Shown piece by piece: positions 1 to 16,514 of a stretch of DNA of 16,514 nucleotides. Position numbers and translations under genes: made by a program. The DNA is taken from IMG/VR virus record IMGVR_UViG_2681813234_000010, positions 1-16,514 of that record; one strand, 5' to 3'. The DNA comes from a virus. Its lineage: Duplodnaviria; Heunggongvirae; Uroviricota; Caudoviricetes. The notes beneath the pieces were generated by a model. That model did no database searches and was not told the DNA's origin. It saw only the letters and a program-made list of their open reading frames with translations. Numbering within the stretch: position 1 is the stretch's first letter; each line of letters opens with the position of its first letter.

Positions 1-1236
1 TTGGGTGAACATAAACGTTACAATGACGAGGTTATTCATAATGTCTATCCGAAAGTCATAGATGATGATTTGTTTCTCACAGCTAATCGCATGATGGATC
101 GTGTGATGTTGGAGAAGAATAAACCAGCAGAAGACCTGTTACTTGAATCTGATGTGGTGCAAGAGATCTTTCAGCTATATGAAAGTGGGCTTGGCTCAGG
201 TGCTATCGTTAAGCGTTTGCCGAAAGGGTGGAGTACTGTAAATGTACTAAGGGTTTTACGTGACAAAAATGTAGTAACGCAGAAGATTATCGATAACTTA
301 ACTTTTGAGCGTGTGAATCAAAAGTTGTCAATGAATGGTGTAGCCAATCGCATTCGGAAGGATATAACTATTGCACAAGATGATTACATAACTAACTTAT
401 TCCCGAAGATCCTTAAGTGCGGTTATTGTGGTGGTAATGTTGCGATTCACTATAATCATGTTAGAACGAAATATGTGATTTGTCGAAATCGAGAAGAAAG
501 GAAGATCTGTGATGCAAAATCCATACAGTATATTAGAATTGAAAAAAACATACTCAAATGCGTGAAGAATGTAGATTTTCAAAAATTAATGATAGAAAGT
601 ACTGGCAGTGAAACTTCAGTGCTGGATGGTCTGCATGAAGAGCTATCATCATTACGCAGAGAAGAAAATAGTTATAGCGATAAAATAAATGAAAGAAAAT
701 TAGCAGGTAAAAGAGTAGGTATACATCTCAATGATGGGTTAACGGAGGTGCAGGACAGGATTGAAGAAATAGAAAAAGAAATTATCAATGCTCAAACTGT
801 AAGAGAGATACCTAAATTTGATTTTGATATGGATGAAGTACTTGATCCAATGAACATAGAGCTACGAGCGAAAGTGCGAAAACAGCTTAGGTTAGTACTT
901 AAAGCAGTGAAATACTGGATGTTCGATAAGCGTATTTTTATCCAATTGGAATACTTCAATGATGTACTTTCACACATGCTTGTAATTGATAATAAACGTG
1001 GCGGTGGAGATGTAATATATGAAATGTCTATTGAAGAAAGAAAGGGTGAACGAATCTATACAGTTCATGAAAATGGTCATGCAGTTTTCATTGCATCAGT
1101 AACTATCGGCACAGATATATGGTCATTAGCTTTAAGCCGCACACGTACAATTGATACCATTGGCAATTACCTAAGCCTCCTTGCTCGTGAAGGTTTTGAG
1201 ATCTTTGTGAACGAAGATCAAATTGATTGGTTTTAG
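1..1236 (+). CDS. int: Large serine recombinase (phage integrase), C-terminal ~410 codons; the 5' end lies upstream of the window
   Basis: Frame is open from base 1 to TAG at 1234-1236. The translation shows the tail of a recombinase domain, then a four-Cys zinc-ribbon (KCGYCGG ... CRNREERKICD) and a long charged, coiled-coil-like segment. That order is typical of large serine integrases. The catalytic resolvase domain is not in the window. Confidence 0.75.
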   Translation: MGEHKRYNDEVIHNVYPKVIDDDLFLTANRMMDRVMLEKNKPAEDLLLESDVVQEIFQLYESGLGSGAIVKRLPKGWSTVNVLRVLRDKNVVTQKIIDNLTFERVNQKLSMNGVANRIRKDITIAQDDYITNLFPKILKCGYCGGNVAIHYNHVRTKYVICRNREERKICDAKSIQYIRIEKNILKCVKNVDFQKLMIESTGSETSVLDGLHEELSSLRREENSYSDKINERKLAGKRVGIHLNDGLTEVQDRIEEIEKEIINAQTVREIPKFDFDMDEVLDPMNIELRAKVRKQLRLVLKAVKYWMFDKRIFIQLEYFNDVLSHMLVIDNKRGGGDVIYEMSIEERKGERIYTVHENGHAVFIASVTIGTDIWSLALSRTRTIDTIGNYLSLLAREGFEIFVNEDQIDWF

Positions 1237-1316
1237 TATTGTGAGAGTACCTTACTTTCAATAAGTATGAAAATTCTTTGGAGAACGTAGTTTTTACGTT
1301 TTAAACTTTATTTTCA

Positions 1317-1347
1317 CCTCGCAGGAGCGATTCTGCGAGGTTTTTCC
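1317..1347 (+). terminator. Rho-independent terminator downstream of the integrase gene
   Basis: Perfect 8-bp stem CCTCGCAG (1317-1324) / CTGCGAGG (1333-1340) with an 8-nt loop, immediately followed by TTTTT (1341-1345). Confidence 0.6.
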
Positions 1348-1465
1348 ATGTATGGTAATGCAATGAGGTGAGGCGTGGCTTGGGGGGGCGTATAGAGCGT
1401 TACAGGAAGGATTTGCGTTAAGTGTTAGTTTGATGTGCATATCTGAGTATATTTTCCTATTATCT

Positions 1466-1494
1466 TTGACCAGTCCTCGGGAATAATATATAAT
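1466..1494 (+). promoter_or_regulatory. Sigma70-like promoter (TTGACC, 17-bp spacer, TATAAT)
   Basis: -35 TTGACC at 1466-1471 and a consensus -10 TATAAT at 1489-1494 with a 17-bp spacer, about 90 bp upstream of the ORF starting at 1584. Confidence 0.5.
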
Positions 1495-1583
1495 GGCTTC
1501 ACGCCCTTAATAAAGGCTAGGCAGACAAAAGAGATATATAAATCTTTTCGCTACTGCCGATATCAAGTAGGAGCAAATCCAAA

Positions 1584-1940
1584 ATGACACTCAAACATAA
1601 TGAAACACATATTTATTATTCCAATGATTGTGCCGTAGAACAACAAGATAAAGAAATCTGGATCGACCAGAATTTAGTATATAGCTGCTGTAAAGGCGAT
1701 GAAGTAGAGTATACAGAAGGTAATAAGTCGGACTCTCCATTCTATGGTCAAGAGGCTTTACAAACTATGTATTATACTGACCGTGGAAATGTTCAGTATA
1801 ATAATGAAGATGGGAGTTTTTACTTTCGCCTTGATGATGGGAATATGAATACATACATAGATGGACAACTCCAGATTGATGATCCTAACGGTGACTATGT
1901 AGAATTCATTGAGTTCGCAAATAGTGTAATGTCTAAGTAA
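1584..1940 (+). CDS. Hypothetical small, strongly acidic protein (118 aa)
   Basis: ATG at 1584 preceded by AGGAG (1567-1571); ends at TAA 1938-1940. By manual count about 23 Asp/Glu versus 7 Lys/Arg. No recognisable family motif. Confidence 0.55.
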   Translation: MTLKHNETHIYYSNDCAVEQQDKEIWIDQNLVYSCCKGDEVEYTEGNKSDSPFYGQEALQTMYYTDRGNVQYNNEDGSFYFRLDDGNMNTYIDGQLQIDDPNGDYVEFIEFANSVMSK

Positions 1941-1953
1941 GAAAATTTATAAA

Positions 1954-1971
1954 CGAAGGTGCTAACCTTCG
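1954..1971 (+). terminator. Weak hairpin after the 1584-1940 ORF (possible terminator)
   Basis: 7-bp stem CGAAGGT (1954-1960) / ACCTTCG (1965-1971) with a 4-nt loop. No U-tract follows, so terminator function is doubtful. Confidence 0.25.
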
Positions 1972-2040
1972 ACGGTCATCATATATGACCGATTTTAAGT
2001 GAGATACCATAAATACTCCTATAACAGATAGGAGATATTT

Positions 2041-2214
2041 ATGAATTGGATATACAAAATAATCTTTGAAATCATTGCTACGGCAATCTATATGTTCGTA
2101 CTATTTCCATGTTGGATAGTACTGTGCATCTTTTTTATGTTATTAACAGTATTAGCACTACCTTTGAAAATTCCAACCATAAATAAAATGGTTATCAGGT
2201 TTTTGGAACGATAA
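2041..2214 (+). CDS. Small hydrophobic membrane protein (57 aa); not in the supplied ORF track
   Basis: ATG at 2041 preceded by AGGAG (2030-2034) with a 6-nt spacer; TAA at 2212-2214. The translation MNWIYKIIFEIIATAIYMFVLFPCWIVLCIFFMLLTVLALPLKIPTINKMVIRFLER is almost entirely hydrophobic, consistent with 1-2 transmembrane helices. Confidence 0.4.
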   Translation: MNWIYKIIFEIIATAIYMFVLFPCWIVLCIFFMLLTVLALPLKIPTINKMVIRFLER

Positions 2215-2232
2215 AAAATAACATGGTATAAT
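2203..2232 (+). promoter_or_regulatory. Putative extended -10 promoter upstream of the small ribbon-helix-helix-like ORF
   Basis: TG at 2224-2225 followed by TATAAT at 2227-2232; weak -35-like TTGGAA at 2203-2208. Confidence 0.3.
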
Positions 2233-2352
2233 CCATATTATGGTGATCACTACCTCAACGTGATAATTATAATTCCACATCAAAAAGTAATCCCCAACAT
2301 GGGGATCTTTTTGCGTTGAGAAAAAATGGAAAATGTTAAACAAAGGAATGTT

Positions 2353-2505
2353 ATGAAAGAAAAGAAAACTATTAGTGTTGGGGTGAGATTAAGTCCTACA
2401 CAAGAAGAAATACTAAAATCACTTATAGTGTGTGGTAAGGCTACAACGATGAGTTCAGCCATTCAGTATCTGATACAGCAATATGGGATTTTAGATAGTA
2501 AGTAA
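2353..2505 (+). CDS. Small ribbon-helix-helix (CopG/Arc-like) DNA-binding protein (50 aa); not in the supplied ORF track
   Basis: ATG at 2353 with AGGA 5 nt upstream; TAA at 2503-2505. The translation MKEKKTISVGVRLSPTQEEILKSLIVCGKATTMSSAIQYLIQQYGILDSK fits the ribbon-helix-helix pattern: an N-terminal beta-strand (ISVGVRLS) followed by two short helices. Confidence 0.45.
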   Translation: MKEKKTISVGVRLSPTQEEILKSLIVCGKATTMSSAIQYLIQQYGILDSK

Positions 2506-2512
2506 GGGTTTG

Positions 2513-2560
2513 GTACTTTCACTTTAGAAAGGTACTAACAGTACTTCAGGATGAAGTACT
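2513..2560 (+). repeat. Cluster of four GTACT motifs plus a duplicated AGGATGAA just upstream of the HNH/AP2 gene
   Basis: GTACT at 2513, 2532, 2541 and 2556; AGGATGAA occurs twice (about 2549 and 2570). Likely a regulatory binding array or leader. Confidence 0.3.
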
Positions 2561-2578
2561 TAGTTTCAAGGATGAAAT

Positions 2579-3079
2579 ATGAAAAAGGAAAAAAGAAATG
2601 ACCTAAAGGGTCAGGAATTACCACATGTAAAAGAAGCACTACGAGTATGGAATAACTTTCACTCAAGAGTGCGTAATAACATCAATTATAGTACTGTTAC
2701 CATCTGCGATGACTGGTATCGGTTTAGTAATTTTTATTATTGGTATGTTGAAAATGTTGTTGATGGTTGGCATTTAGATAAAGACATATTAGGAGGTAAT
2801 GAGTACAGCCCAAGTAACTGCATCTTTGTACCGAGAGAAGTAAATCAATTGTTCCGTAAAGCACCAACGTCATTATCAACCGGTGTTGTCGTTAATCATA
2901 AGGGCTATCAAGCACAAGCAACATTTGATAAGAAAGTACATAAGTTTGGGACATACCCAACGATAGAAGAAGCTCATGCTGCTTATGTTATTGGGCGTAA
3001 ATCATATATCTATAAACTATCGCAGAAGTATAAAGCATATCCAAAACTTAGTGCGGTACTATTACAAAAATCAAAATAA
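2579..3079 (+). CDS. HNH-type endonuclease-like protein with a C-terminal AP2-like DNA-binding domain
   Basis: ATG at 2579 with AAGGA 6 nt upstream. Residues WHLDKDILGGNEYSPSNCIFVPREVN match an HNH_3-style H...N...N motif. The downstream GYQAQATFDKKVHKFGTYPTIEEAHAAY resembles an AP2 domain, a pairing common in phage homing-endonuclease-like proteins. Confidence 0.55.
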   Translation: MKKEKRNDLKGQELPHVKEALRVWNNFHSRVRNNINYSTVTICDDWYRFSNFYYWYVENVVDGWHLDKDILGGNEYSPSNCIFVPREVNQLFRKAPTSLSTGVVVNHKGYQAQATFDKKVHKFGTYPTIEEAHAAYVIGRKSYIYKLSQKYKAYPKLSAVLLQKSK

Positions 3080-3144
3080 CGAAATGGCCTGAGTACTGGA
3101 AATACTACAGGTCAATATTAACATCTATCATATGGGTATTTATT

Positions 3145-3669
3145 ATGACAAAAAAGAAAGAGCCGCATGAAATAAAGAAACGTGGACGAAAACCAAAAGA
3201 ACACGATAATGCAGAATTACAAGATCATTTAAGGGGAGTACGCCATCTTAATCAACTTACAGATGAAGTACGTAGAGTAATATCAAACTCTGTTAAAAGT
3301 TACTTTGAAAAGAACAATAAACGTAAGACTTTCTCAAACAAGAATATGCTACTTCTGGTTACATCGACTCGATACATCACAGATGAAGCGATAAAGAACA
3401 ATATCGAGTACTTTGATGCCTTCACACTCAATGAGTACGGCGATTCCTCAGTACGAGATTATAAGATGGTCACGATTGCTATATGTGAGGGTCTGAATGC
3501 AATTCTAAGTAGTGGTAAGCCAGTAAGAAGTGATACACCAGAGGGATCACAGTACTTAACTGGTGAAGAAGCATATCAACTACGTATGGCTTTAGATGGT
3601 GGCTGTACTAAGGCAGACCTACTAAAGGTTATAGCTACAATTTATCCCGAATTAAGACATTCTAAGTAG
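3145..3669 (+). CDS. Hypothetical protein with a basic AT-hook-like N-terminus; possible DNA-binding regulator
   Basis: ORF of 174 aa. The N-terminus has KKRGRKPKE (AT-hook-like). The C-terminal LTGEEAYQLRMALDGGCTKADLLKVIATIY loosely resembles a helix-turn-helix of the sigma region-4 type. Function not established. Confidence 0.5.
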   Translation: MTKKKEPHEIKKRGRKPKEHDNAELQDHLRGVRHLNQLTDEVRRVISNSVKSYFEKNNKRKTFSNKNMLLLVTSTRYITDEAIKNNIEYFDAFTLNEYGDSSVRDYKMVTIAICEGLNAILSSGKPVRSDTPEGSQYLTGEEAYQLRMALDGGCTKADLLKVIATIYPELRHSK

Positions 3670-4122
3670 TGTTTTAATAACGGTTCAAATGTCGTAATTA
3701 AGGTTAAATGGGGTTTTTATGGGGTTGATTAGTGCTGCTTGCACTAGATATAGTATCTAAAATGAGTTAAAAAACACTGTATATGGGTTGTCCCGAATTT
3801 CGACACCATAATTAGAAATTATTAAGACCTCTTGTACTACGTCCAAATCGGTCTTTGAGTGCCTACACTCCCTGCGGTCGTATAGTCACTGAAAAACAAA
3901 TTAAACCGATCCTTGCGTTTTTTCTCGCTAGTACTCGAAAAACACGCAGGGGATTTACTCGCTTTCGCTCAGACAGGTAACAGTACTGACTAAACTATTG
4001 GGGTCGGCCTATGGCCTAAAGTTCGCTTCGCTCTTTTTGAAGTATCTACGCGGGCTAAGCCCTTGTTGGGGTTATCGGGCTGTTTAAGCCCTTACTGAAG
4101 TCATCAAATTATCTAACGACAC

Positions 4123-4246
4123 GAAGCAGTACTATCAATTGATTACTTCAAATGAGTTACTAAGTGAGCAGTCGTCTCACTTGCAATACTTATGATCTAT
4201 ATAAATGAAATCTGCAAGTGAGACTCCGGAGAAGTAGTACTATCAA
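4123..4246. repeat. Two 16-bp direct repeats (15/16 identical) bracketing a palindromic site
   Basis: GAAGCAGTACTATCAA at 4123-4138 and GAAGTAGTACTATCAA at 4231-4246. An extra AAGTGAG half-site copy sits at 4162-4168. Confidence 0.6.
4174..4224. repeat. 51-bp site: perfect 12-bp inverted repeat with a 27-bp AT-rich spacer (candidate attP, origin or operator)
   Basis: GTCTCACTTGCA (4174-4185) and its exact reverse complement TGCAAGTGAGAC (4213-4224). The spacer ATACTTATGATCTATATAAATGAAATC contains a GATC and a TATA-like run. Confidence 0.6.
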
Positions 4247-4403
4247 GTCACATATATTTGAGTACTGAATGATTTAGTTAGTCACAGTTGAAATAATTAA
4301 TATATAAAGGTCTACTTATAAATTCTACCGTGACAACCATCTACTATTTCAATCCAGGCCATTATGACTGGGTTTACGGGAAGCGTGAATAAAACTGTCT
4401 CAG

Positions 4404-5138
4404 TCAACTCAATAAAATTTCCATACTTGTGGGTGAAAACATACGATAGCTGATAATGTCACCTACATTGAAATTTGTTTGGAAAAAACTTCTAAGATCT
4501 GTTCCTCCCATGATTCTAGGTACTTTATTAGTGTTTGCCGTTCTGTTAATGATTGCAGTGAGGCTTGTATTGGTGCTGGAGTTAGTTATTTTTATTCTTG
4601 CACCATCTTCTCCAAACTCATGACTGGCAGCCACGGTAACGTTGAAAAATCCTCTTTGCCAATATGTATTAGCCATTCTGAAATTGTAAGTCGGGCTTGA
4701 TTTCTCTGAAGTGACAATTTCTATGTAATCTGTCGTGATTATCTTTTCCTGATAACCATTCCACTCAGGCTGTAGTACTCTAATTATGTCATCTTCTAAT
4801 GCAGCAGCTAGGTTTAAGTGAAATTGACCATAGTGCATTAATCCATTATCGGGTAAAACAAAAATGTCTACCGCTTCATTGTTTTTTAGATGCCTAATAA
4901 TATTCGCGTTGTTTTTTATATTTGTTGATTGAGTAGGGCCTGGCATAGAATAATGATACATTCTACGTTTAAGTAAACGAGTAGTTTTGCCTACATATTT
5001 TACCTGACCATCACAAATGAACGCATAAAGATTATTTTTGACATCTGAGTGAGAAGGTTCAAGTGTAAATTGTAGTTTTTCGCCATTGAGTTCCCAAAAG
5101 CCAATTTTAATAAATCCAATTTCAAGTAATCTATTCAT
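4404..5138 (-). CDS. GIY-YIG nuclease-domain protein with an unrecognised ~110-aa C-terminal domain
   Basis: ORF of 244 aa. Residues LYAFICDGQVKYVGKTTRLLKRRMYHY match the GIY...YIG core with the conserved Arg. Downstream, AAALEDDIIRVLQPEWN matches the conserved Glu and Asn region (compare UvrC ALLLEHNYIKLYQPRYN). The start ATG overlaps the stop of the upstream gene (ATGAATAG on the minus strand). Confidence 0.65.
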   Translation of the reverse strand: MNRLLEIGFIKIGFWELNGEKLQFTLEPSHSDVKNNLYAFICDGQVKYVGKTTRLLKRRMYHYSMPGPTQSTNIKNNANIIRHLKNNEAVDIFVLPDNGLMHYGQFHLNLAAALEDDIIRVLQPEWNGYQEKIITTDYIEIVTSEKSSPTYNFRMANTYWQRGFFNVTVAASHEFGEDGARIKITNSSTNTSLTAIINRTANTNKVPRIMGGTDLRSFFQTNFNVGDIISYRMFSPTSMEILLS

Positions 5139-5877
5139 GTATGACCTTCTTTCGAACTATGAATTTGTCAGTGGGGTAATTATTTGAATAGGTAGAAATA
5201 ATAAACGCTGAAACTTTCCGGTGTGTCTCTGTAACCTGATTCTTAAACTCTAAAAATTCAGCAATAGTTAAATCTTTTGCCTGTCGGTCTGCGTGTATCA
5301 GTGAGTCAACTTCAAAATATGAAGAAAGAAATAAGTTGTATATATTCCCATATTCCCGATTAGTGTCCTTAAGGATATTAATGATAGAGCAACTATAGTT
5401 ACTTAATTCAAAACCATTTCTTGGTATTGTATTTAAACTGTTAATTACTGAATAGGAGAGGTTAGCGAACTCATCCATTAAATTATCTAACTTGTGAACC
5501 TCATTTCTTAGTGATTCGTTGATGGCACAATTGTTATTTAATACGCTGATCGATTGTTTGCCCACTGACCAATATAAATTTCTCAAATGGTGGCTGGCAG
5601 AATTAACTTTTGTTAAATTAGTATAAATCGATTCTTCGATAACATTATGAACCACATCATATTGCTTTTGTGCTAACCATTCAGGTGCTTTTTTATACGC
5701 AGCAATCGCTATACCTAAAGTACCAATTGTAGCTAATGAACTCAACCAATCACTTACGCTTCCCCATTCAAAGCCATTAGAATCAGAAAATAGTACTTTA
5801 ATTAAAGCTAATATCGCTACCCATAGAAGTACTATGACGGTAGCAACTAATAATTTGTTCCATCCTTCAACTTTCAC
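5131..5877 (-). CDS. Membrane protein with two N-terminal transmembrane helices and a ~180-aa soluble domain
   Basis: ORF of 248 aa with a probable GTG start at 5877. Hydrophobic segments LLVATVIVLLWVAILALIKVLF and WLSSLATIGTLGIAIAAY. Its stop overlaps the start of the GIY-YIG gene by 8 nt, implying an operon. Confidence 0.55.
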   Translation of the reverse strand: MKVEGWNKLLVATVIVLLWVAILALIKVLFSDSNGFEWGSVSDWLSSLATIGTLGIAIAAYKKAPEWLAQKQYDVVHNVIEESIYTNLTKVNSASHHLRNLYWSVGKQSISVLNNNCAINESLRNEVHKLDNLMDEFANLSYSVINSLNTIPRNGFELSNYSCSIINILKDTNREYGNIYNLFLSSYFEVDSLIHADRQAKDLTIAEFLEFKNQVTETHRKVSAFIISTYSNNYPTDKFIVRKKVIHE

Positions 5878-6049
5878 TTTCTTAACCCGTAGAATGGTTC
5901 ATGGATGAAAAATTTTACCATTTGCAGTTATGTTTCGTAAATGATCATCGTAGAGTGAAAATTTAACTTAAGTGGAAGTTGCAACTCCATTTGGTGGAGT
6001 TGTACTGGTTGAGATCACGATTTCTTTGAAAAAAACGGGGCTGGTTGCT

Positions 6050-6076
6050 TTGAACTGGTTAACATAGTGGGATAAT
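6050..6076 (+). promoter_or_regulatory. Putative promoter for the HNH / PD-(D/E)xK cassette
   Basis: TTGAAC at 6050-6055, then TG (6068-6069) followed by GATAAT at 6071-6076 (extended -10-like). AGGAG at 6100-6104 precedes the ATG at 6110. Confidence 0.3.
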
Positions 6077-6109
6077 AAGCACCGAAGAAGAACTTCAGCA
6101 GGAGCAGGT

Positions 6110-6838
6110 ATGAACAGAAAGCAATTCATCCAGTCACACGGAGCTACTTGCAGTAACTGGACGTGGAGTTGGTCATTTGTTAACCATGAAAAGAAGATGG
6201 TCATCTTTGGGTCATGGGATGTTGAGAGTGAACAAGAGCGGTCTGTAATACTCCGGGAGAAATGGGAATACAACTCAAACAACAAAAAACAACCGGGATA
6301 CACCCAGGCACTGGAACACATCCGTTTAGCCCATGAAGGCTACGAACTTTACACCTTCAATATGGTTTTCGCAGAACACCCTGAGAATCCTGAAATTGCA
6401 GTAATCAAGGATTTTGAGCGTAAATTAAACAAGCGATATCTTCGTAAAGAAGGTGTTGTTTGGTATGCAGACTTCTTACCTAATCCATTCCCTGATGAAA
6501 TTCCTTCAGGAGAGAGTTTTGTTGAAGGTGCAAAGACTCAAGTAACAGTGAACTACTACGAACGCGATCCAAAGGCCCGACAAGCCTGCATCCAGCATCA
6601 CGGTACTACCTGTAAATGCTGTGGCTTCGATTTTGAGAAGGTCTATGGTACACATGGCCGTGGGTTCATTCATGTACATCACATCAAGCCGCTTCATACG
6701 ATTGGGGAAAACTATGTGGTCAATCCCGTAACAGATATGATCCCATTATGTCCAAACTGCCATGCAATGGTACATCACGGAAGCGAAGTACTTACAATTG
6801 CAGATTTGAAAAAGAAAATGACATTCTGGAGCGAGTAA
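6110..6838 (+). CDS. Zn-finger HNH endonuclease (McrA-like HNH) with an unrecognised ~150-aa N-terminal domain
   Basis: ORF of 242 aa with a good ribosome-binding site. The C-terminus CKCCGFDFEKVYGTHGRGFIHVHHIKPL...DMIPLCPNCHAMVHH is a classic HNH motif with CxxC...CxxCH zinc ligands, as in McrA-type enzymes. The N-terminal domain has no motif I can assign. Confidence 0.7.
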   Translation: MNRKQFIQSHGATCSNWTWSWSFVNHEKKMVIFGSWDVESEQERSVILREKWEYNSNNKKQPGYTQALEHIRLAHEGYELYTFNMVFAEHPENPEIAVIKDFERKLNKRYLRKEGVVWYADFLPNPFPDEIPSGESFVEGAKTQVTVNYYERDPKARQACIQHHGTTCKCCGFDFEKVYGTHGRGFIHVHHIKPLHTIGENYVVNPVTDMIPLCPNCHAMVHHGSEVLTIADLKKKMTFWSE

Positions 6839-7630
6839 ATGGATTTATCACAATTGAGCAACGTCGAATTGATGCAACTGAATCAGTTGACGCTTGATGA
6901 GTTAGAACGACGAGAGGTTATCAGAACCAGAAACAATCCTATCAGTGAGTACACTGAATGGCTGGTTGCGGATAAGATGCAGATGGTACTGGCTGCACCT
7001 AGTACTAAAGGGTATGACGCTACAACAACTGATGATCGAAAAATTCAGATTAAGTCTCGTAAGAATAATTTAAAAAACCAATCATTAATTCTTGGAATTA
7101 TCAGAAATTATGATCTGAACCAATTCGATGAACTCATTGCCGTAATATATAACCATGATTTCTCAATTCGTTATGCCATATCCATACCACATGAATTAGT
7201 GAAGGAATATGGTTTTTATAATGAGCATCAGAATGGGTACACTTTAAGAATAAGCAATTTATTACTTAATGATCCACGTGTAACAGATATCATTGAATTT
7301 ATTGACCCAGACACTGAACGTTCAAAGGAAGATATCACGGTGAAGCCAGATTCAAACACTATCCGGGATGTACAGACAATAGGAATGCAGACGTTTGTTG
7401 AGTACTATCAGTATGTTGAAAGTGGTATGAACACAACTGATCTTGTTGAAAAGATGGTAACTGACCATCCAGAATGGAAGGAAAGTACTGCAAGAACAAA
7501 GGCATCTTCAATGCGAAGAGTATTTAAGAATTGCGACAACGTTGAAGCACTAAAAATCATCTATAAGTCGGATCACCCAGCAATAACGGATGAGATTAAG
7601 AGTAAACTTATGACGCTTTGGGATAAATGA
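6839..7630 (+). CDS. Hypothetical protein with a PD-(D/E)xK-like (Hjc/restriction-endonuclease-fold) motif
   Basis: ATG at 6839 directly abuts the TAA of the HNH gene (TAAATG). EWLVADKMQMVLAAPSTKGYDATTTDDRKIQIKSRK fits an E ... D ... (E/Q)xK nuclease-core pattern. The fold assignment is tentative. Confidence 0.5.
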   Translation: MDLSQLSNVELMQLNQLTLDELERREVIRTRNNPISEYTEWLVADKMQMVLAAPSTKGYDATTTDDRKIQIKSRKNNLKNQSLILGIIRNYDLNQFDELIAVIYNHDFSIRYAISIPHELVKEYGFYNEHQNGYTLRISNLLLNDPRVTDIIEFIDPDTERSKEDITVKPDSNTIRDVQTIGMQTFVEYYQYVESGMNTTDLVEKMVTDHPEWKESTARTKASSMRRVFKNCDNVEALKIIYKSDHPAITDEIKSKLMTLWDK

Positions 7631-7729
7631 ACAAAGTTTTGGTTATATTTTTGACGCAAAAAGATATAATTGTAGTACTTCCACCTTTCGCATTTGGGTA
7701 GGTTTGTTTGGGCGATTGGTGGAAGTGTA

Positions 7730-8041
7730 TCAAAACGGTAATTCTCCCTGCTCACAAAACCATCCATCTTCATCATGCTGCTTATAGACAGAATTCTCAG
7801 TACTCAGATAATGCAAACCTTCCAGTACTGAACTTAGCGGCGTTTCCAGTATGAACACGAAGCAATCACGCTCAATCGTGCCTAACCAGTATGTACCTTG
7901 CTGGTTCTGGAAGAAAACGCGATCCCCATATGAAAACTCATCAAGACTGTATCCCCAATAGCAGACCTTAGCCCATTGGCCTAAATGCTCAAACTGCTGC
8001 ACCCCGCGTTTGATTGCCAGATCAAAACCGTTCTTGCCCAT
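7730..8041 (-). CDS. Hypothetical protein (103 aa) in a GC-richer island
   Basis: ORF with ATG at 8041. Its composition matches the surrounding GC-rich segment rather than the AT-rich backbone. No family motif recognised. Confidence 0.4.
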   Translation of the reverse strand: MGKNGFDLAIKRGVQQFEHLGQWAKVCYWGYSLDEFSYGDRVFFQNQQGTYWLGTIERDCFVFILETPLSSVLEGLHYLSTENSVYKQHDEDGWFCEQGELPF

Positions 8042-8146
8042 ACTATGCCTCTACATTAATACTGGTTATTCATACAGTATTGCATCACATTTCGCACAGA
8101 TCCAGCCATGAAAATACTTACCACTAAAAACGGTAGAAATGTAATT

Positions 8147-8216
8147 ATCGATCATTTTAATTTGATCAATGGTTAAAAATGATCAATTATCAATCAGTTA
8201 TGACAACTGAGAGATC
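8147..8216. promoter_or_regulatory. GATC-rich divergent intergenic region with a repeated TGATCAAT motif
   Basis: Four GATC sites in about 67 bp (8150, 8164, 8181, 8213). TGATCAAT occurs twice (8163-8170 and 8180-8187). The region lies between the divergently oriented 7730-8041 ORF and the EAL-like ORF. Confidence 0.4.
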
Positions 8217-8219
8217 AAC

Positions 8220-8729
8220 ATGAAACTCGAACATTGGGCAATTCCGATCACTTCATTGGACGGTATGTTACTCGGCGTAGAGCTGTAAACCCGTGTACTG
8301 ATAAACGGTTGCCAGGTACTGATGGGGGCAGGAAAAGAAAGTGAATATATCCGTCACGTGGTCTATCAGAACCAGTTAAGAATGATTCAGGGTAAAGCCG
8401 CATGGTTCAAAGAAAAGGGGCTGTTGTGCGTGCTCAGTACTGGCACAGGTACACGCTATGAAGATCTACCATTCATACGGTACATGGCTGCTGAACCACT
8501 GCTAACGAACGGTTACGACTTAGTTCGACTAAATAGACGGTTCACTGAAGAACACATAGAGCGGCTGATCTTCCCGGTACTCATCAATAACATCATGCAG
8601 TACTGCGACAAGGTGATCGTACAAGTCAGCAGCAATCGAAATCACAGGATTTTACGAGAGTCGGGGGTATGGGCAGTACAGGGAGAGTACAGGCCAATCC
8701 GCTTTGAACAATGCGAACAACTTCTATAG
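8220..8729 (+). pseudogene. EAL-like (possibly YdiV-type degenerate EAL) ORF interrupted by a single in-frame TAA
   Basis: ATG at 8220 opens MKLEHWAIPITSLDGMLLGVEL, then TAA at 8286-8288, and the same frame continues open to 8729 (170 codons in total). The N-terminal xPIxxxxGxxxGVEL and C-terminal WAVQGEY patterns resemble EAL-domain ends. The family assignment is tentative. Confidence 0.35.
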
Positions 8730-8739
8730 GGATATAACA

Positions 8740-9012
8740 ATGAAAATACTAATCGTCATGTTGGTAGTACTGCTCACAGGCTGCGGCAGCGTACATCACT
8801 CATTCATGGATAAAGCCTTTGTCGGCAACGTTGATAACAAGGCTACAATAGTACTGTTCGACGCTGGCACACGAAACGGGGTGAAGTACTACCGGCCTCA
8901 GTTCCAGAGTGATTGTGGCCGCACCTACAATCCGATTTACCAGGTGGACAATGGCAGTACTACATGCCATATACGAGAGGAAAGAATTAAAAAAATGCAT
9001 CAATATAGATAA
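8740..9012 (+). CDS. Small lipoprotein (90 aa)
   Basis: ATG at 8740 with AGGGA 8 nt upstream. The N-terminus MKILIVMLVVLLTGCGS has a hydrophobic signal peptide and the lipobox L-T-G-C. It starts 11 nt after the EAL-like ORF stop. Confidence 0.55.
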   Translation: MKILIVMLVVLLTGCGSVHHSFMDKAFVGNVDNKATIVLFDAGTRNGVKYYRPQFQSDCGRTYNPIYQVDNGSTTCHIREERIKKMHQYR

Positions 9013-9132: not shown

Positions 9133-10287
9133 TCAACGTAGCATGGCTAATGTTCTGGAAATTCTTATTATATCCTTCTCAATATCATCTAAAACAGGAG
9201 TTGAGTTTCTGCTTCGCTCTGCAATTTCTTGCAAAATATATCTATTTAAATGGTTGTTAACATTTTTAGGGTCAAGGTTTTCTGGTGTGGGAACAACACA
9301 GCACTGCCAATAAAAAATCTCATCTTCAAAATGATTTAGCCATTTAGAATGATATTTTTCTTTCGATTTTTTCTTGTTAAGGACATAAATGCTAGCCGCA
9401 GCTACCACATCCGCAATTTGTATACCATGCGTGACTTTAGAATCAGAAAGAATCATTGGCTCAGATAGCTTAAATGTGATCGGGATTTTTTTATCATGAA
9501 AAGTCTCGAACACAATCTCATCATTGCCTATCATCTCATTGAATGAGTCCTGATGAGTAATTAATGGTTTTGAGCTGTCGCATATAGCTCTCAATGTACC
9601 AAACTTACTACTCATATCGCACAGGAGATTATAAAGAGAAGTCGTTGTCAAATCTAATAACCACTTATCAATCCCAGTACCCTCAAGGCCTTCATATTCT
9701 TCTTCAATTATAGAGATGTTATTCTTGGCGAAATCATGAATGTCCATCATAATTTCAGAATTTTTAGAACCAACAACTGGTTCGATAAAACTATTAACCA
9801 ATATTTTACCTCGTGAAAAATCTTCAAATCGCGAATGTAATAGTTCTGAATATTCATCCTTAGCTATTAAAGAAAAATACATTATATTTGAGATGAATAG
9901 GTGAAATTTAAGGTTGTAAAAAATTGAGCTTTTAGCTGCTAATACTGGCTCAAAAATATATTCGAAGAATTTTCCTGAGAGGGCATATTTTTTTTCGTTT
10001 ACAACCACACGCATACGACCACGGAAATGATTAAGTATTTCATCTACGGCTGGTTGAAATCTCTTGCTATTTACGAGAGTGCTACCTTTTAGCTCTTCGG
10101 CTGCGATCGAGTACTTGTTTATTATATAATCAACAAACTGTTTACTTTCCTCATCATCAGTCACGACTGCTGCGTAACTAAAAAAAGGCTGATCTTTTGA
10201 AAGTAAGTTATTACCAGTGAATCCTGATTCATCGAAATATACATTCTTTACCAATTTGGTCATTCCTTTATGAGCTACAATGTGCAT
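9133..10287 (-). CDS. DUF3800-family protein
   Basis: The N-terminal VYFDESGFTG and C-terminal GIQIADVVAAA match the two conserved DUF3800 signature motifs. The start is uncertain: ATG at 10287, ATG at 10263 or TTG at 10254. None has an ideal ribosome-binding site. Confidence 0.6.
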   Translation of the reverse strand: MHIVAHKGMTKLVKNVYFDESGFTGNNLLSKDQPFFSYAAVVTDDEESKQFVDYIINKYSIAAEELKGSTLVNSKRFQPAVDEILNHFRGRMRVVVNEKKYALSGKFFEYIFEPVLAAKSSIFYNLKFHLFISNIMYFSLIAKDEYSELLHSRFEDFSRGKILVNSFIEPVVGSKNSEIMMDIHDFAKNNISIIEEEYEGLEGTGIDKWLLDLTTTSLYNLLCDMSSKFGTLRAICDSSKPLITHQDSFNEMIGNDEIVFETFHDKKIPITFKLSEPMILSDSKVTHGIQIADVVAAASIYVLNKKKSKEKYHSKWLNHFEDEIFYWQCCVVPTPENLDPKNVNNHLNRYILQEIAERSRNSTPVLDDIEKDIIRISRTLAMLR

Positions 10288-11044: not shown

Positions 11045-13412
<2,368 letters not shown>

Positions 13413-13415
13413 TAA

Positions 13416-16514
<3,099 letters not shown>

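What the first reader, a model, noticed from the sequence alone, without database searches (positions are those of the whole stretch)
4404..5877. Two-gene operon: 2-TM membrane protein + GIY-YIG nuclease; candidate undescribed defense or exclusion module
A GTG-initiated membrane protein (two N-terminal TM helices and a ~180-aa soluble domain with no recognisable motif) is translationally coupled, by an 8-nt ATGAATAG overlap, to a GIY-YIG nuclease. That nuclease carries a 36-aa N-terminal extension and an unassigned ~110-aa C-terminal domain. The operon is transcribed opposite to its flanking genes, inside an accessory block between integrase and terminase. I cannot match this membrane + GIY-YIG architecture to a named defense system from memory. 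A membrane sensor or anchor paired with a nuclease effector is a recurring logic in abortive-infection and exclusion systems.
Basis: partly seen in the sequence, partly recalled or inferred. Interest (0 to 1): 0.7.

Follow-up and report, generated by a model that had tools for sequence, protein, structure and literature searches.

The report
Separable membrane gene and restriction-like nuclease
Two overlapping genes in a prophage's accessory region encode a membrane protein of an unnamed family and a DNA-cutting enzyme that joins a phage-T4-type nuclease to a DNA-reading domain known from restriction enzymes, but each gene is often found without the other, so they are probably two independent cargo genes rather than one new defence system.

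Summary
Two minus-strand ORFs, 5131-5877 (248 aa, GTG start) and 4404-5138 (244 aa), overlap by ATGAATAG. They lie between a serine recombinase and a terminase.

The membrane protein belongs to an unnamed family (350 representative clusters). It has a TM hairpin followed by a four-helix bundle. It sits in this prophage hotspot in one to three copies, often without the nuclease.

Membrane gene followed by nuclease recurs in five prophage lineages.

Best reading: co-transcribed but separable cargo genes, the nuclease being a self-contained restriction-like enzyme. An analogue of the membrane-anchored nuclease SNIPE, split over two genes, is not excluded (~0.2).

The parts
5131..5877 (-). ORF A: 248-aa membrane protein with a GTG start. 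It belongs to an unnamed family combining a TM hairpin with a four-helix bundle.
   Evidence: ORF listed. AlphaFold model pLDDT 83: helices 8-29, 39-115, 121-149, 160-193 and 198-231. The family has 350 representative clusters at E<=1e-3. No Pfam, PHROG or PADLOC family matches.
5695..5877 (-). ORF A residues 1-61: TM1 (9-29), an acidic loop carrying the family hallmark EWGSVSDW, and a weaker TM2 (44-61).
   Evidence: Hydropathy 2.8 for TM1 and 1.2 for TM2; charge distribution fits N-in/C-in. Invariant E37 W38 G39 S40 D43 S46 A57 W67 in the close family.
5134..5694 (-). ORF A residues 62-248: predicted cytoplasmic helical bundle. This part is highly variable between family members.
5131..5138 (-). 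8-nt overlap ATGAATAG: the nuclease start codon and the ORF A stop codon.
   Evidence: Read directly from the sequence. The junction is not conserved in relatives: 17-nt overlap, 2-nt gap, 12-nt gap and 178-nt gap.
4404..5138 (-). ORF B: 244-aa two-domain nuclease, an EndoII-like GIY-YIG domain plus a B3-like domain.
4755..5138 (-). ORF B residues 1-128: T4 endonuclease II-like GIY-YIG catalytic domain.
4695..4754 (-). ORF B residues 129-148: flexible interdomain linker, variable in length.
   Evidence: pLDDT <50 for residues 132-144. This stretch of the alignment is full of insertions and deletions.
4407..4694 (-). ORF B residues 149-244: B3-like (EcoRII-N/BfiI-C type) pseudobarrel, the presumed DNA-reading domain.
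5912..5941 (-). Sigma-70-like promoter candidate upstream of ORF A (TTTACG-18-TAAAAT with an extended -10 TG).
   Evidence: Consensus scan only. The number of sites found in the region is no more than in shuffled sequence. Weak evidence.
4139..5738 (-). Exchangeable cassette: ORF A codons ~47-248, ORF B and 265 bp downstream.
   Evidence: In L011 the flanks are 98.3% (window 1-4138) and 93.9% (window 5739-8987) identical. This 1600-bp stretch is replaced there by 671 bp that encode a different ORF A C-terminus and no nuclease. L013 breaks at window 5746.

Best explanation
The locus holds two separable cargo genes in a variable 'hotspot' of a temperate phage that integrates by a serine recombinase. 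In this prophage they are transcribed together.

ORF B is a self-contained, restriction-type DNA endonuclease. A B3-like pseudobarrel reads DNA and, through a flexible linker, positions a T4-EndoII-like GIY-YIG catalytic domain that cuts it. That much is inferred from fold. The family almost always occurs alone and has no conserved methyltransferase neighbour. The putative DNA-contact residues of the reader domain are invariant from Enterobacteriaceae to Planctomycetes. I therefore infer that it recognises a constant feature of foreign DNA, most likely a base modification (Type IV-like logic, as in the single-protein GIY-YIG enzyme CMoRE/PD-T4-3), rather than a strain-specific sequence. On this reading it protects the lysogen against other phages or plasmids.

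ORF A is one member of a large unnamed family: a membrane hairpin with an EWGSVSDW loop, followed by a cytoplasmic four-helix bundle. Members populate the same hotspot in one to three tandem copies, with a conserved 5' end and swappable 3' ends. I infer an independent membrane-level role, such as superinfection exclusion or abortive infection. Its conserved 5' segment also serves as a recombination arm for cassette exchange.

Shown: the ORFs, the folds, the intact catalytic residues, the independent distribution of the two genes and the cassette boundaries. Inferred: nuclease activity, the type of target, a defence role, and any function of ORF A.
For: Nuclease anatomy:
- Fold matches are listed; the family profile matches EndoII at 3.8e-6.
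- The catalytic and reader-domain residues are invariant in 46 sequences.

Independence of the nuclease:
- The nuclease is alone in L086, a collinear prophage.
- It is also alone in L084 and L085 (plasmids), L087, and L005-8 and L016.
- In about 50 full-length loci from other species, a profile of the membrane family finds no partner within 5 kb.
- Among 149 neighbouring ORFs no family recurs except Phage_integrase (6), HNH (2) and Helicase_C (2). No methyltransferase appears among the families that recur.

Independence of ORF A:
- ORF A relatives occur without the nuclease in L011-12, L013, L009-10 (three tandem copies), L089-91 (two copies) and L014.

Cassette exchange:
- Homology breaks at window 5739 (L011) and 5746 (L013), just after the EWGSVSDW motif.

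Mobile or defence-like setting:
- The adjacent genes match PADLOC models mREase_IV (4e-8) and mREase_II (1.3e-62).
- The family is patchy across phyla at ~45-50% identity and is often next to integrases.

Precedent:
- A solitary GIY-YIG enzyme with a C-terminal sensor acts as a Type IV restriction enzyme: CMoRE (PMC12923530).
Against: - Membrane-family gene immediately followed by the nuclease, on the same strand, recurs in five lineages. The nuclease has diverged to 58-85% identity and ORF A to 34-88%, and ORF A subtypes differ among them. In L011 the ORF A 3' part and the nuclease are exchanged as one block. Both points would also fit a functional link.
- All known B3-domain restriction enzymes read unmodified specific sequences and have cognate methyltransferases. 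The modification-dependent guess has no direct support.
- No activity, target or phenotype has been measured for either protein.
- No sequenced phage in the 50,697-record collection carries either gene, so no experimental system is at hand.
Confidence: 0.55

Rival explanations
1. The two genes form a true two-component defence module, a counterpart of SNIPE/PD-lambda-1 split over two genes. ORF A would anchor, gate or activate the cytoplasmic nuclease ORF B at the inner membrane, so that ORF B cuts incoming phage DNA or is released on membrane perturbation. The solitary nuclease copies elsewhere would then be a different, autonomous mode of the same enzyme.
For: - The arrangement recurs in the window, L001, L004, L081 and L082/83, with tight junctions: 8-nt and 17-nt overlaps, and 2-nt and 12-nt gaps.
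- The ORF A 3' part and the nuclease are exchanged as one block relative to L011.
- The predicted topology puts the ORF A helical bundle in the cytoplasm, where ORF B would be.
- SNIPE shows that a membrane-anchored GIY-YIG nuclease with a DNA-binding domain is a working defence design, and that removing its anchor is toxic (bioRxiv 10.1101/2025.11.03.685801).
- In L082 an 8xMP membrane protein precedes the ORF A relative, and P0240 fuses 8xMP to an ORF A-like module. ORF A relatives therefore do combine with other proteins.
Against: - The nuclease is alone in collinear prophage L086 and in all other contexts surveyed.
- ORF A relatives are alone or in tandem arrays in collinear prophages.
- The overlap is not conserved; L081 has a 178-nt gap with an intervening small ORF.
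- The ORF A subtype next to the nuclease varies (only the N-terminal ~100 residues align in L082). That argues against a specific protein-protein interface in the helical bundle.
- ORF A is the default resident beside the divergent HNH gene in this phage group, so adjacency may simply reflect where cargo lands.
Confidence: 0.22
2. ORF B is a selfish free-standing homing endonuclease (Seg-like) that has inserted downstream of ORF A. ORF A would be unrelated.
For: - The gene shows presence/absence polymorphism between near-identical prophages (L011 against the window).
- It occurs as a single-gene insertion between housekeeping genes (L005-8).
Against: - No NUMOD or other homing-endonuclease DNA-binding modules are detected. 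The nearest catalytic-domain relative is EndoII, not I-TevI.
- Insertion sites and flanking genes differ in nearly every lineage, so there is no recognisable cognate target gene.
- The swap relative to L011 is a replacement that includes part of ORF A. It is not a clean insertion.
- The DNA-binding residues are invariant across phyla.
Confidence: 0.08
3. ORF B serves the phage's own lytic cycle, as T4 endonuclease II does, by degrading host DNA after induction. ORF A would be a lysis or membrane-remodelling accessory such as a holin.
For: - The closest solved structure is T4 EndoII, which nicks and cleaves cytosine-containing host DNA (PMC2764454 is listed).
- The gene lies in a prophage.
Against: - Most family members are on chromosomes and plasmids outside any phage.
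- No DNA-modification pathway that could protect the phage's own DNA is present in the window.
- The genes lie in the integrase-proximal accessory block, transcribed opposite to their neighbours.
- ORF A matches no holin or spanin PHROG, is 248 aa with a large soluble bundle, and has no lysin gene beside it in the window.
Confidence: 0.05

Closest known systems
Bacteriophage T4 endonuclease II (DenA), PDB 2wsh
   Different: EndoII is a 136-aa single-domain enzyme of a lytic phage that degrades unmodified host DNA. ORF B carries an extra B3-like domain, is only 23% identical, and its family is mostly bacterial (chromosomes, plasmids and prophages).
B3-like DNA-recognition domains of restriction enzymes (EcoRII-N, BfiI-C, NgoAVII, UbaLAI, LlaJI.R1) and of plant B3 transcription factors
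   Different: In the known enzymes the partner is a PD-(D/E)XK nuclease, a phospholipase-D-type nuclease or an McrB-like GTPase (established knowledge; PMC5766183 and PMC5737866 are listed). Here the partner is GIY-YIG, a combination I did not find described. There is no sequence-level match to Pfam B3 and no conserved methyltransferase partner.
CMoRE / PD-T4-3 (PDB 9u75; PMC12923530)
   Same: [quoted passage not shown] It acts alone as a Type IV restriction enzyme. It is the best functional analogy for solitary ORF B homologues.
   Different: No PADLOC hit. The catalytic domain is EndoII-like, not UvrC-like. There is no GIYxY third tyrosine (the sequence reads N-L-Y-A-F). The authors report that the CMoRE sensor fold has no homologues, whereas this one is B3-like.
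SNIPE / PD-lambda-1 (bioRxiv 10.1101/2025.11.03.685801)
   Same: It is the only characterised 'membrane + GIY-YIG' defence I found.
   Different: SNIPE is one polypeptide (TM, DUF4041, GIY-YIG). Here the anchor would be a separate, dispensable gene. ORF B has no TM segment, no DUF4041 and no PADLOC match.

Membership tests
GIY-YIG nuclease superfamily, T4 EndoII-like branch (ORF B N-domain) | GIY and YIG tyrosines plus the conserved Arg, Glu (metal ligand) and Asn | tested here: met
   Y38, Y48, R59, E115 and N127 are invariant in 46 homologues. E115 aligns with EndoII E118.
GIY-YIG nuclease superfamily, T4 EndoII-like branch (ORF B N-domain) | GIY-YIG alpha/beta fold | tested here: met
GIY-YIG nuclease superfamily, T4 EndoII-like branch (ORF B N-domain) | Score above the Pfam PF01541 gathering threshold | tested here: not met
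   15.2 bits against a cut-off of 22.6. This is offset by PHROG 1111 at 5.8e-12 and the profile hit to 2wsh.
GIY-YIG nuclease superfamily, T4 EndoII-like branch (ORF B N-domain) | DNA endonuclease activity | not testable with these tools
   Needs purified protein.
B3-like / EcoRII-N pseudobarrel DNA-binding domains (ORF B C-domain) | Seven-stranded pseudobarrel fold | tested here: met
B3-like / EcoRII-N pseudobarrel DNA-binding domains (ORF B C-domain) | Sequence-level family membership (Pfam B3 or a related model) | tested here: not met
   No Pfam hit to this region at E<=0.1.
B3-like / EcoRII-N pseudobarrel DNA-binding domains (ORF B C-domain) | Sequence-specific DNA binding | not testable with these tools
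   Only invariant Arg/Asn residues (N166, N198, R199, R208) hint at a DNA-binding surface.
CMoRE / PD-T4-3 | Match to the PD-T4-3 profile as used by defence-system finders | tested here: not met
   No PADLOC family at E<=0.1.
CMoRE / PD-T4-3 | GIYxY-YIG motif (a third tyrosine) | tested here: not met
   The sequence is NNLYAFICDGQVKYVGKT, with F at the +2 position. The motif is defined in PMC12923530.
CMoRE / PD-T4-3 | Acts as a single-component system | tested here: inconclusive
   Most homologues are solitary genes, but activity was not tested.
SNIPE / PD-lambda-1 | TM segment, DUF4041 and GIY-YIG in one polypeptide | tested here: not met
   ORF B has no TM segment and no DUF4041 or PADLOC hit. 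The membrane part is a separate gene.
Classical Type II restriction-modification system | Cognate DNA methyltransferase gene adjacent to the nuclease | tested here: not met
   None is adjacent in the window. No methyltransferase family recurs among 149 neighbouring ORFs of about 40 loci. One plasmid (L084) has an unrelated leading-region methylase nearby.
Free-standing GIY-YIG homing endonucleases (Seg/I-TevI type) | NUMOD or HTH DNA-binding modules and a constant insertion site beside a target gene | tested here: not met
   No such domains are detected. Flanking genes differ between lineages.
Holin / spanin (ORF A) | Match to a holin or spanin family and adjacency to an endolysin gene | tested here: not met
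   No PHROG or Pfam hit for ORF A or for 65 relatives. There is no lysin gene next to it in the window. The protein is 248 aa with a ~185-aa soluble bundle.
Obligate two-gene (membrane + nuclease) defence system | Co-occurrence of the two genes across unrelated genomes | tested here: not met
   Five paired lineages stand against at least six enterobacterial contexts where the nuclease is unpaired, about 50 more in other phyla, and at least five lineages where the membrane gene is unpaired.

The most novel reading that the evidence does not exclude
ORF A and ORF B together form a two-polypeptide analogue of SNIPE. A member of a large, unrecognised family of prophage membrane proteins would recruit or gate an EndoII/B3 nuclease at the inner membrane, so that only entering DNA is cut. 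The swappable ORF A C-terminal bundles would act as adaptors that set which phage, or which effector, is engaged. ORF A relatives also combine with 8xMP membrane proteins, by fusion (P0240) or adjacency (L082). If this reading is right, the ORF A family would be a general membrane 'docking' component of a whole set of undescribed prophage defence cassettes.
Probability: 0.18. Interest if true: 0.75.

Novelty: new variant of a known kind. Interest (0 to 1): 0.42.

Why it matters
If the nuclease assignment holds, it adds a third nuclease superfamily (GIY-YIG) to the list of catalytic partners of the B3-like DNA reader used by restriction enzymes. It also defines a widespread family (hundreds of clusters, several phyla) of solitary, unannotated restriction-like enzymes with an invariant reader domain. 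Such an enzyme could recognise a DNA modification, which would make it useful as a reagent in the way CMoRE and PvuRts1I are.

The work also flags an unnamed membrane-protein family (350 clusters at 50% identity) that fills a variable hotspot of serine-recombinase prophages in Enterobacteriaceae and exchanges its 3' end at a fixed motif.

For the scan itself, the result is a caution. A tight overlap and a plausible 'sensor + effector' logic did not survive a survey of related loci.

Tried and rejected
- PADLOC, NCBIfam, PHROGs and Pfam scans of both proteins and eight neighbours. Only a sub-threshold GIY-YIG hit and PHROG 1111 turned up for ORF B, and nothing credible for ORF A.
- DNA and protein searches of 50,697 phage records found no match for either gene.
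- A search of E. coli complete genomes gave only a 140-bp match to the ORF A 5' region. It led to a solitary ORF A relative in an IS-rich island (L014).
- Scans of 65 ORF A relatives against Pfam, PHROGs and PADLOC found no shared family. The single hits (AbiTi 1e-4, DpdC 3e-5) were judged to be chance.
- A literature search for '8xMP' / 'octameric membrane protein' returned nothing relevant.
- The neighbour-enrichment survey found no conserved partner or methyltransferase.
- Rfam and tRNA scans of the window found nothing.
- The base-composition profile is uniform at ~36% GC, so the cassette is not compositionally distinct.
- The promoter/terminator scan found no more sites than in shuffled sequence.
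- Considered and rejected: holin/spanin for ORF A; a classical R-M system; membership of CMoRE or SNIPE; a Seg-like homing endonuclease (kept as a low-probability rival).
Full report
**1. Observation.**
The window is an AT-rich (~36% GC) piece of a temperate phage. It holds the C-terminal part of a large serine recombinase (1-1236), an accessory block, then a small terminase candidate, a GpA-type large terminase (11523-13412) and a portal (13955-15463).

Two ORFs lie on the minus strand. ORF A is 5131-5877 (248 aa, GTG start). ORF B is 4404-5138 (244 aa). They overlap by ATGAATAG exactly as described. ORF B has its own AGAAGG ribosome-binding site. Both flanking genes are on the plus strand.

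**2. The nuclease (ORF B).**
Pfam alone gives only a sub-threshold GIY-YIG hit. Stronger evidence comes from three sources.
- PHROG 1111 'endonuclease' matches residues 6-128 at 5.8e-12.
- phmmer finds T4 endonuclease II (PDB 2wsh) over residues 8-128.
- A profile of 46 homologues hits 2wsh at 3.8e-6.

An AlphaFold model built on that alignment (pLDDT 86) has two domains joined by a disordered linker (residues 132-144).

The catalytic residues Y38, Y48, R59, E115 (aligned with EndoII E118) and N127 are invariant. So is a set of polar residues in the reader domain: N166, N198, R199, R208 and G211-G212.

**3. Distribution of the nuclease.**
The family has 681 clusters at E<=1e-3. They are full length and are annotated at most as 'GIY-YIG nuclease family protein'.

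A scan of one genome per species returned 66 loci from Proteobacteria, Planctomycetes, Gemmatimonadetes, Verrucomicrobia, Zixibacteria and others. Sequences from these phyla are still ~45-50% identical to ORF B. A profile HMM of the membrane family, run over every ORF of every locus, found no membrane partner in any of them.

Among 149 neighbouring ORFs, nothing recurs except phage integrases (6), HNH (2) and helicase C-domains (2). No methyltransferase recurs. Shorter versions with only the EndoII-like domain exist (L062-L076). The B3-like domain exists alone as a 101-aa plasmid protein (L092). The two domains are therefore independent modules.

**4. The membrane protein (ORF A).**
The word-indexed search found only 11 relatives. 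An exhaustive profile search found 350 representative clusters, 177 of them at E<=1e-10. Most are 200-280 aa, and most of the full-size ones match over nearly their whole length.

The hallmark is TM1, then an acidic loop with E-W-G-S-V-S-D-W, then a Gly/Ala-rich second helix ending in K-A-P-x-W. After that comes a helical bundle whose sequence diverges into several types.

TM1 is certain (hydropathy 2.8). TM2 is weaker (1.2). The charge distribution favours an N-in/C-in topology with the bundle in the cytoplasm.

**5. Are the two genes a system?**
*Evidence for a link.* A membrane-family gene sits immediately upstream of the nuclease, on the same strand, in five lineages.

| Locus | Arrangement | ORF A identity | ORF B identity | Junction |
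|---|---|---|---|---|
| window | A, B | - | - | 8-nt overlap |
| L001 (Buttiauxella) | A, B | 88% | 85% | 17-nt overlap |
| L004 (E. coli) | A, B | 46% | 66% | 2-nt gap |
| L082/83 | 8xMP protein, A, B | 45% (N-terminal ~100 residues only) | 65% | 12-nt gap |
| L081 | A, A, 42-aa ORF, B, another TM protein | 42% (60 residues only) and 34% | 58% | 178-nt gap |

*Evidence against a link.*
- L086 is a collinear prophage: CI repressor, then the same divergent HNH gene, then a 69%-identical nuclease directly beside it, with no room for a membrane gene.
- The nuclease is also unpaired in these places:
  - the leading region of an Atlantibacter IncF plasmid (L084, 60%);
  - a 10.8-kb plasmid (L085, 58%);
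  - a P2-like Salmonella prophage, next to a 'GT4-conflict' glycosyltransferase (L087, 59%);
  - Rouxiella (L015, 58%);
  - one fixed chromosomal site, between a molybdopterin oxidoreductase and an acetyltransferase, seen in Raoultella (L016) and in further enterobacterial assemblies (L005-8) (57%).
- The membrane family occurs without the nuclease in L011/12 and L013, as three tandem paralogues in L009/10, as two tandem paralogues in a common E. coli prophage (L089-91; that protein is indexed in 165 blocks), and in L014.

*The most telling comparison is L011.* Its flanks are 98.3% (window 1-4138) and 93.9% (window 5739-8987) identical to the window. Window 4139-5738 holds ORF A codons ~47-248, ORF B and 265 bp downstream. 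In L011 this stretch is replaced by 671 bp that encode a different ORF A C-terminus and no nuclease. L013 breaks at almost the same codon (window 5746). The conserved 5' end of ORF A thus acts as one arm of a cassette-exchange site.

Every combination exists: A alone, A arrays, B alone, A+B, and 8xMP+A+B. That is what independent cargo in a hotspot looks like.

**6. Mechanism.**
I commit to the following reading. ORF B is a self-sufficient restriction-type endonuclease. The B3-like domain binds DNA, and the EndoII-like domain, tethered by a flexible linker, cuts nearby.

It is usually solitary, has no conserved methyltransferase, shows the patchy cross-phylum distribution typical of mobile defence genes, and has an invariant reader surface. 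The most economical target is therefore a constant mark of foreign DNA, that is, Type IV-like behaviour.

The recently solved CMoRE/PD-T4-3 shows that a ~245-aa GIY-YIG enzyme with a C-terminal sensor does exactly this on its own (PMC12923530). The neighbours at 6110-6838 (HNH) and 6839-7630 (DUF6998) match PADLOC restriction-enzyme models (mREase_IV at 4e-8, mREase_II at 1.3e-62), which fits a defence island.

The target type is inference only. All characterised B3-domain restriction enzymes read unmodified sequences.

ORF A most likely has its own membrane-level role (exclusion or abortive infection), but nothing here shows what that role is.

**7. Rivals.**
- *A counterpart of SNIPE split over two genes (~0.22).* SNIPE/PD-lambda-1 is a single protein with a TM anchor, a DNA-binding DUF4041 and a GIY-YIG nuclease. 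It cuts phage DNA during injection and becomes toxic without its anchor (bioRxiv 10.1101/2025.11.03.685801). The recurrent A-then-B order and the joint exchange of the ORF A 3' part with ORF B keep this alive. The unpaired copies and the varying ORF A subtype argue against it.
- *Homing endonuclease (~0.08).* The layout is similar. But there are no NUMOD modules, no constant site and no clean insertion.
- *An EndoII-like lytic function (~0.05).* This is contradicted by the mostly non-phage distribution.

**8. Comparison and novelty.**
[quoted passage not shown] It carries a B3-like fold; the fold test was met, the sequence-family test was not. It is not a member of CMoRE (no profile hit, no GIYxY motif, a different sensor fold), nor of SNIPE (no TM, no DUF4041).

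I found no description of a GIY-YIG plus B3 fusion, either in the GIY-YIG phylogenomic survey (PMC1564403) or by full-text search. I therefore rate the nuclease a new variant of a known kind.

The proposed 'membrane + GIY-YIG two-gene system' is not established. The membrane family is uncharacterised and deserves a name, but its function is open.

**9. Verdict.**
Interest is moderate (0.42). The domain architecture and the hotspot biology are worth a modest follow-up. The headline claim of a new two-gene system is more likely wrong than right.

Noticed in passing
window 6110-6838 (+) and 6839-7630 (+): An abutting gene pair. The first is an HNH endonuclease (PADLOC mREase_IV 4e-8). The second is a DUF6998 protein (PADLOC mREase_II 1.3e-62) with an extra ~110-aa C-terminal region. 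The pair recurs in L001 and L011, while L004, L013, L081 and L086 keep only the HNH gene. It looks like a candidate modification-dependent restriction module, transcribed divergently from ORF A.
   Followed up: partly
window 5739-5877 (ORF A codons 1-46); L011 6001-6139; L013 6001-6132: The first ~46 codons of ORF A (TM1 plus the EWGSVSDW loop) are conserved at the DNA level (94-95%) in prophages whose ORF A continues with an entirely different TM2 and bundle. Homology breaks at nearly the same codon in two independent prophages. This looks like a fixed recombination point for swapping the 3' end of the gene and whatever lies downstream.
   Followed up: partly
L009 4508-6762; L089-L091 4453-6319; L081 27-1797: Relatives of ORF A occur as tandem arrays of two or three diverged paralogues in the same hotspot of related prophages, sometimes preceded by a further small unknown gene (183 aa in L089). 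The reason for the multiplicity is unexplained.
   Followed up: partly
L082 4497-5255; protein P0240 (461 aa): A Pfam 8xMP ('octameric membrane protein', PF24838) gene sits directly upstream of the ORF A relative and the nuclease in L082/L083. One database protein (probably P0240, the only long member) fuses an 8xMP module to an ORF A-like module, which suggests the two membrane families work together. I found no literature on 8xMP.
   Followed up: partly
window 9133-10287 (-): A 384-aa DUF3800 protein (Pfam 3.3e-9; PHROG 12991 8.5e-119) is encoded on the minus strand in the accessory block. It is another uncharacterised prophage cargo gene.
   Followed up: no
window 8704-9012 (+): A 102-aa ORF. 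From an internal Met at residue 13 it reads MKILIVMLVVLLTGCGS, which resembles a lipoprotein signal peptide with a lipobox (L-T-G-C). It may be a prophage-encoded lipoprotein; some such lipoproteins block phage receptors.
   Followed up: no
window 3670-4403: A 734-bp stretch with no ORF of 50 aa or more lies downstream of the nuclease. Positions 3670-4138 are ~98% conserved in L011. No Rfam family, tRNA or terminator-like site was found there.
   Followed up: partly
window 2579-3079 (+): A 166-aa protein matches only the C-terminal part of phage HNH homing-endonuclease families (PHROG 953 1.5e-38, profile positions 227-371 of 420). Corresponding genes in L004, L013 and L081 carry NUMOD4/HNH_3. 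It may be a truncated or minimal homing-endonuclease relative.
   Followed up: no
L087 3727-5780: In a P2-like Salmonella prophage the nuclease homologue (59%) follows a 'GT4-conflict' glycosyltransferase, beside the tail-fibre genes. Whether glycosyltransferase and nuclease form a modification/restriction-like pair there is unknown.
   Followed up: no
L015 5794-6471; L081 2763-3518; L084 4671-5069: In several enterobacterial contexts the nuclease is followed, rather than preceded, by a small unrelated protein with an N-terminal hydrophobic segment: 225 aa and 251 aa TM proteins, and a 132-aa protein with a signal peptide. None matches the ORF A profile or any library.
   Followed up: partly
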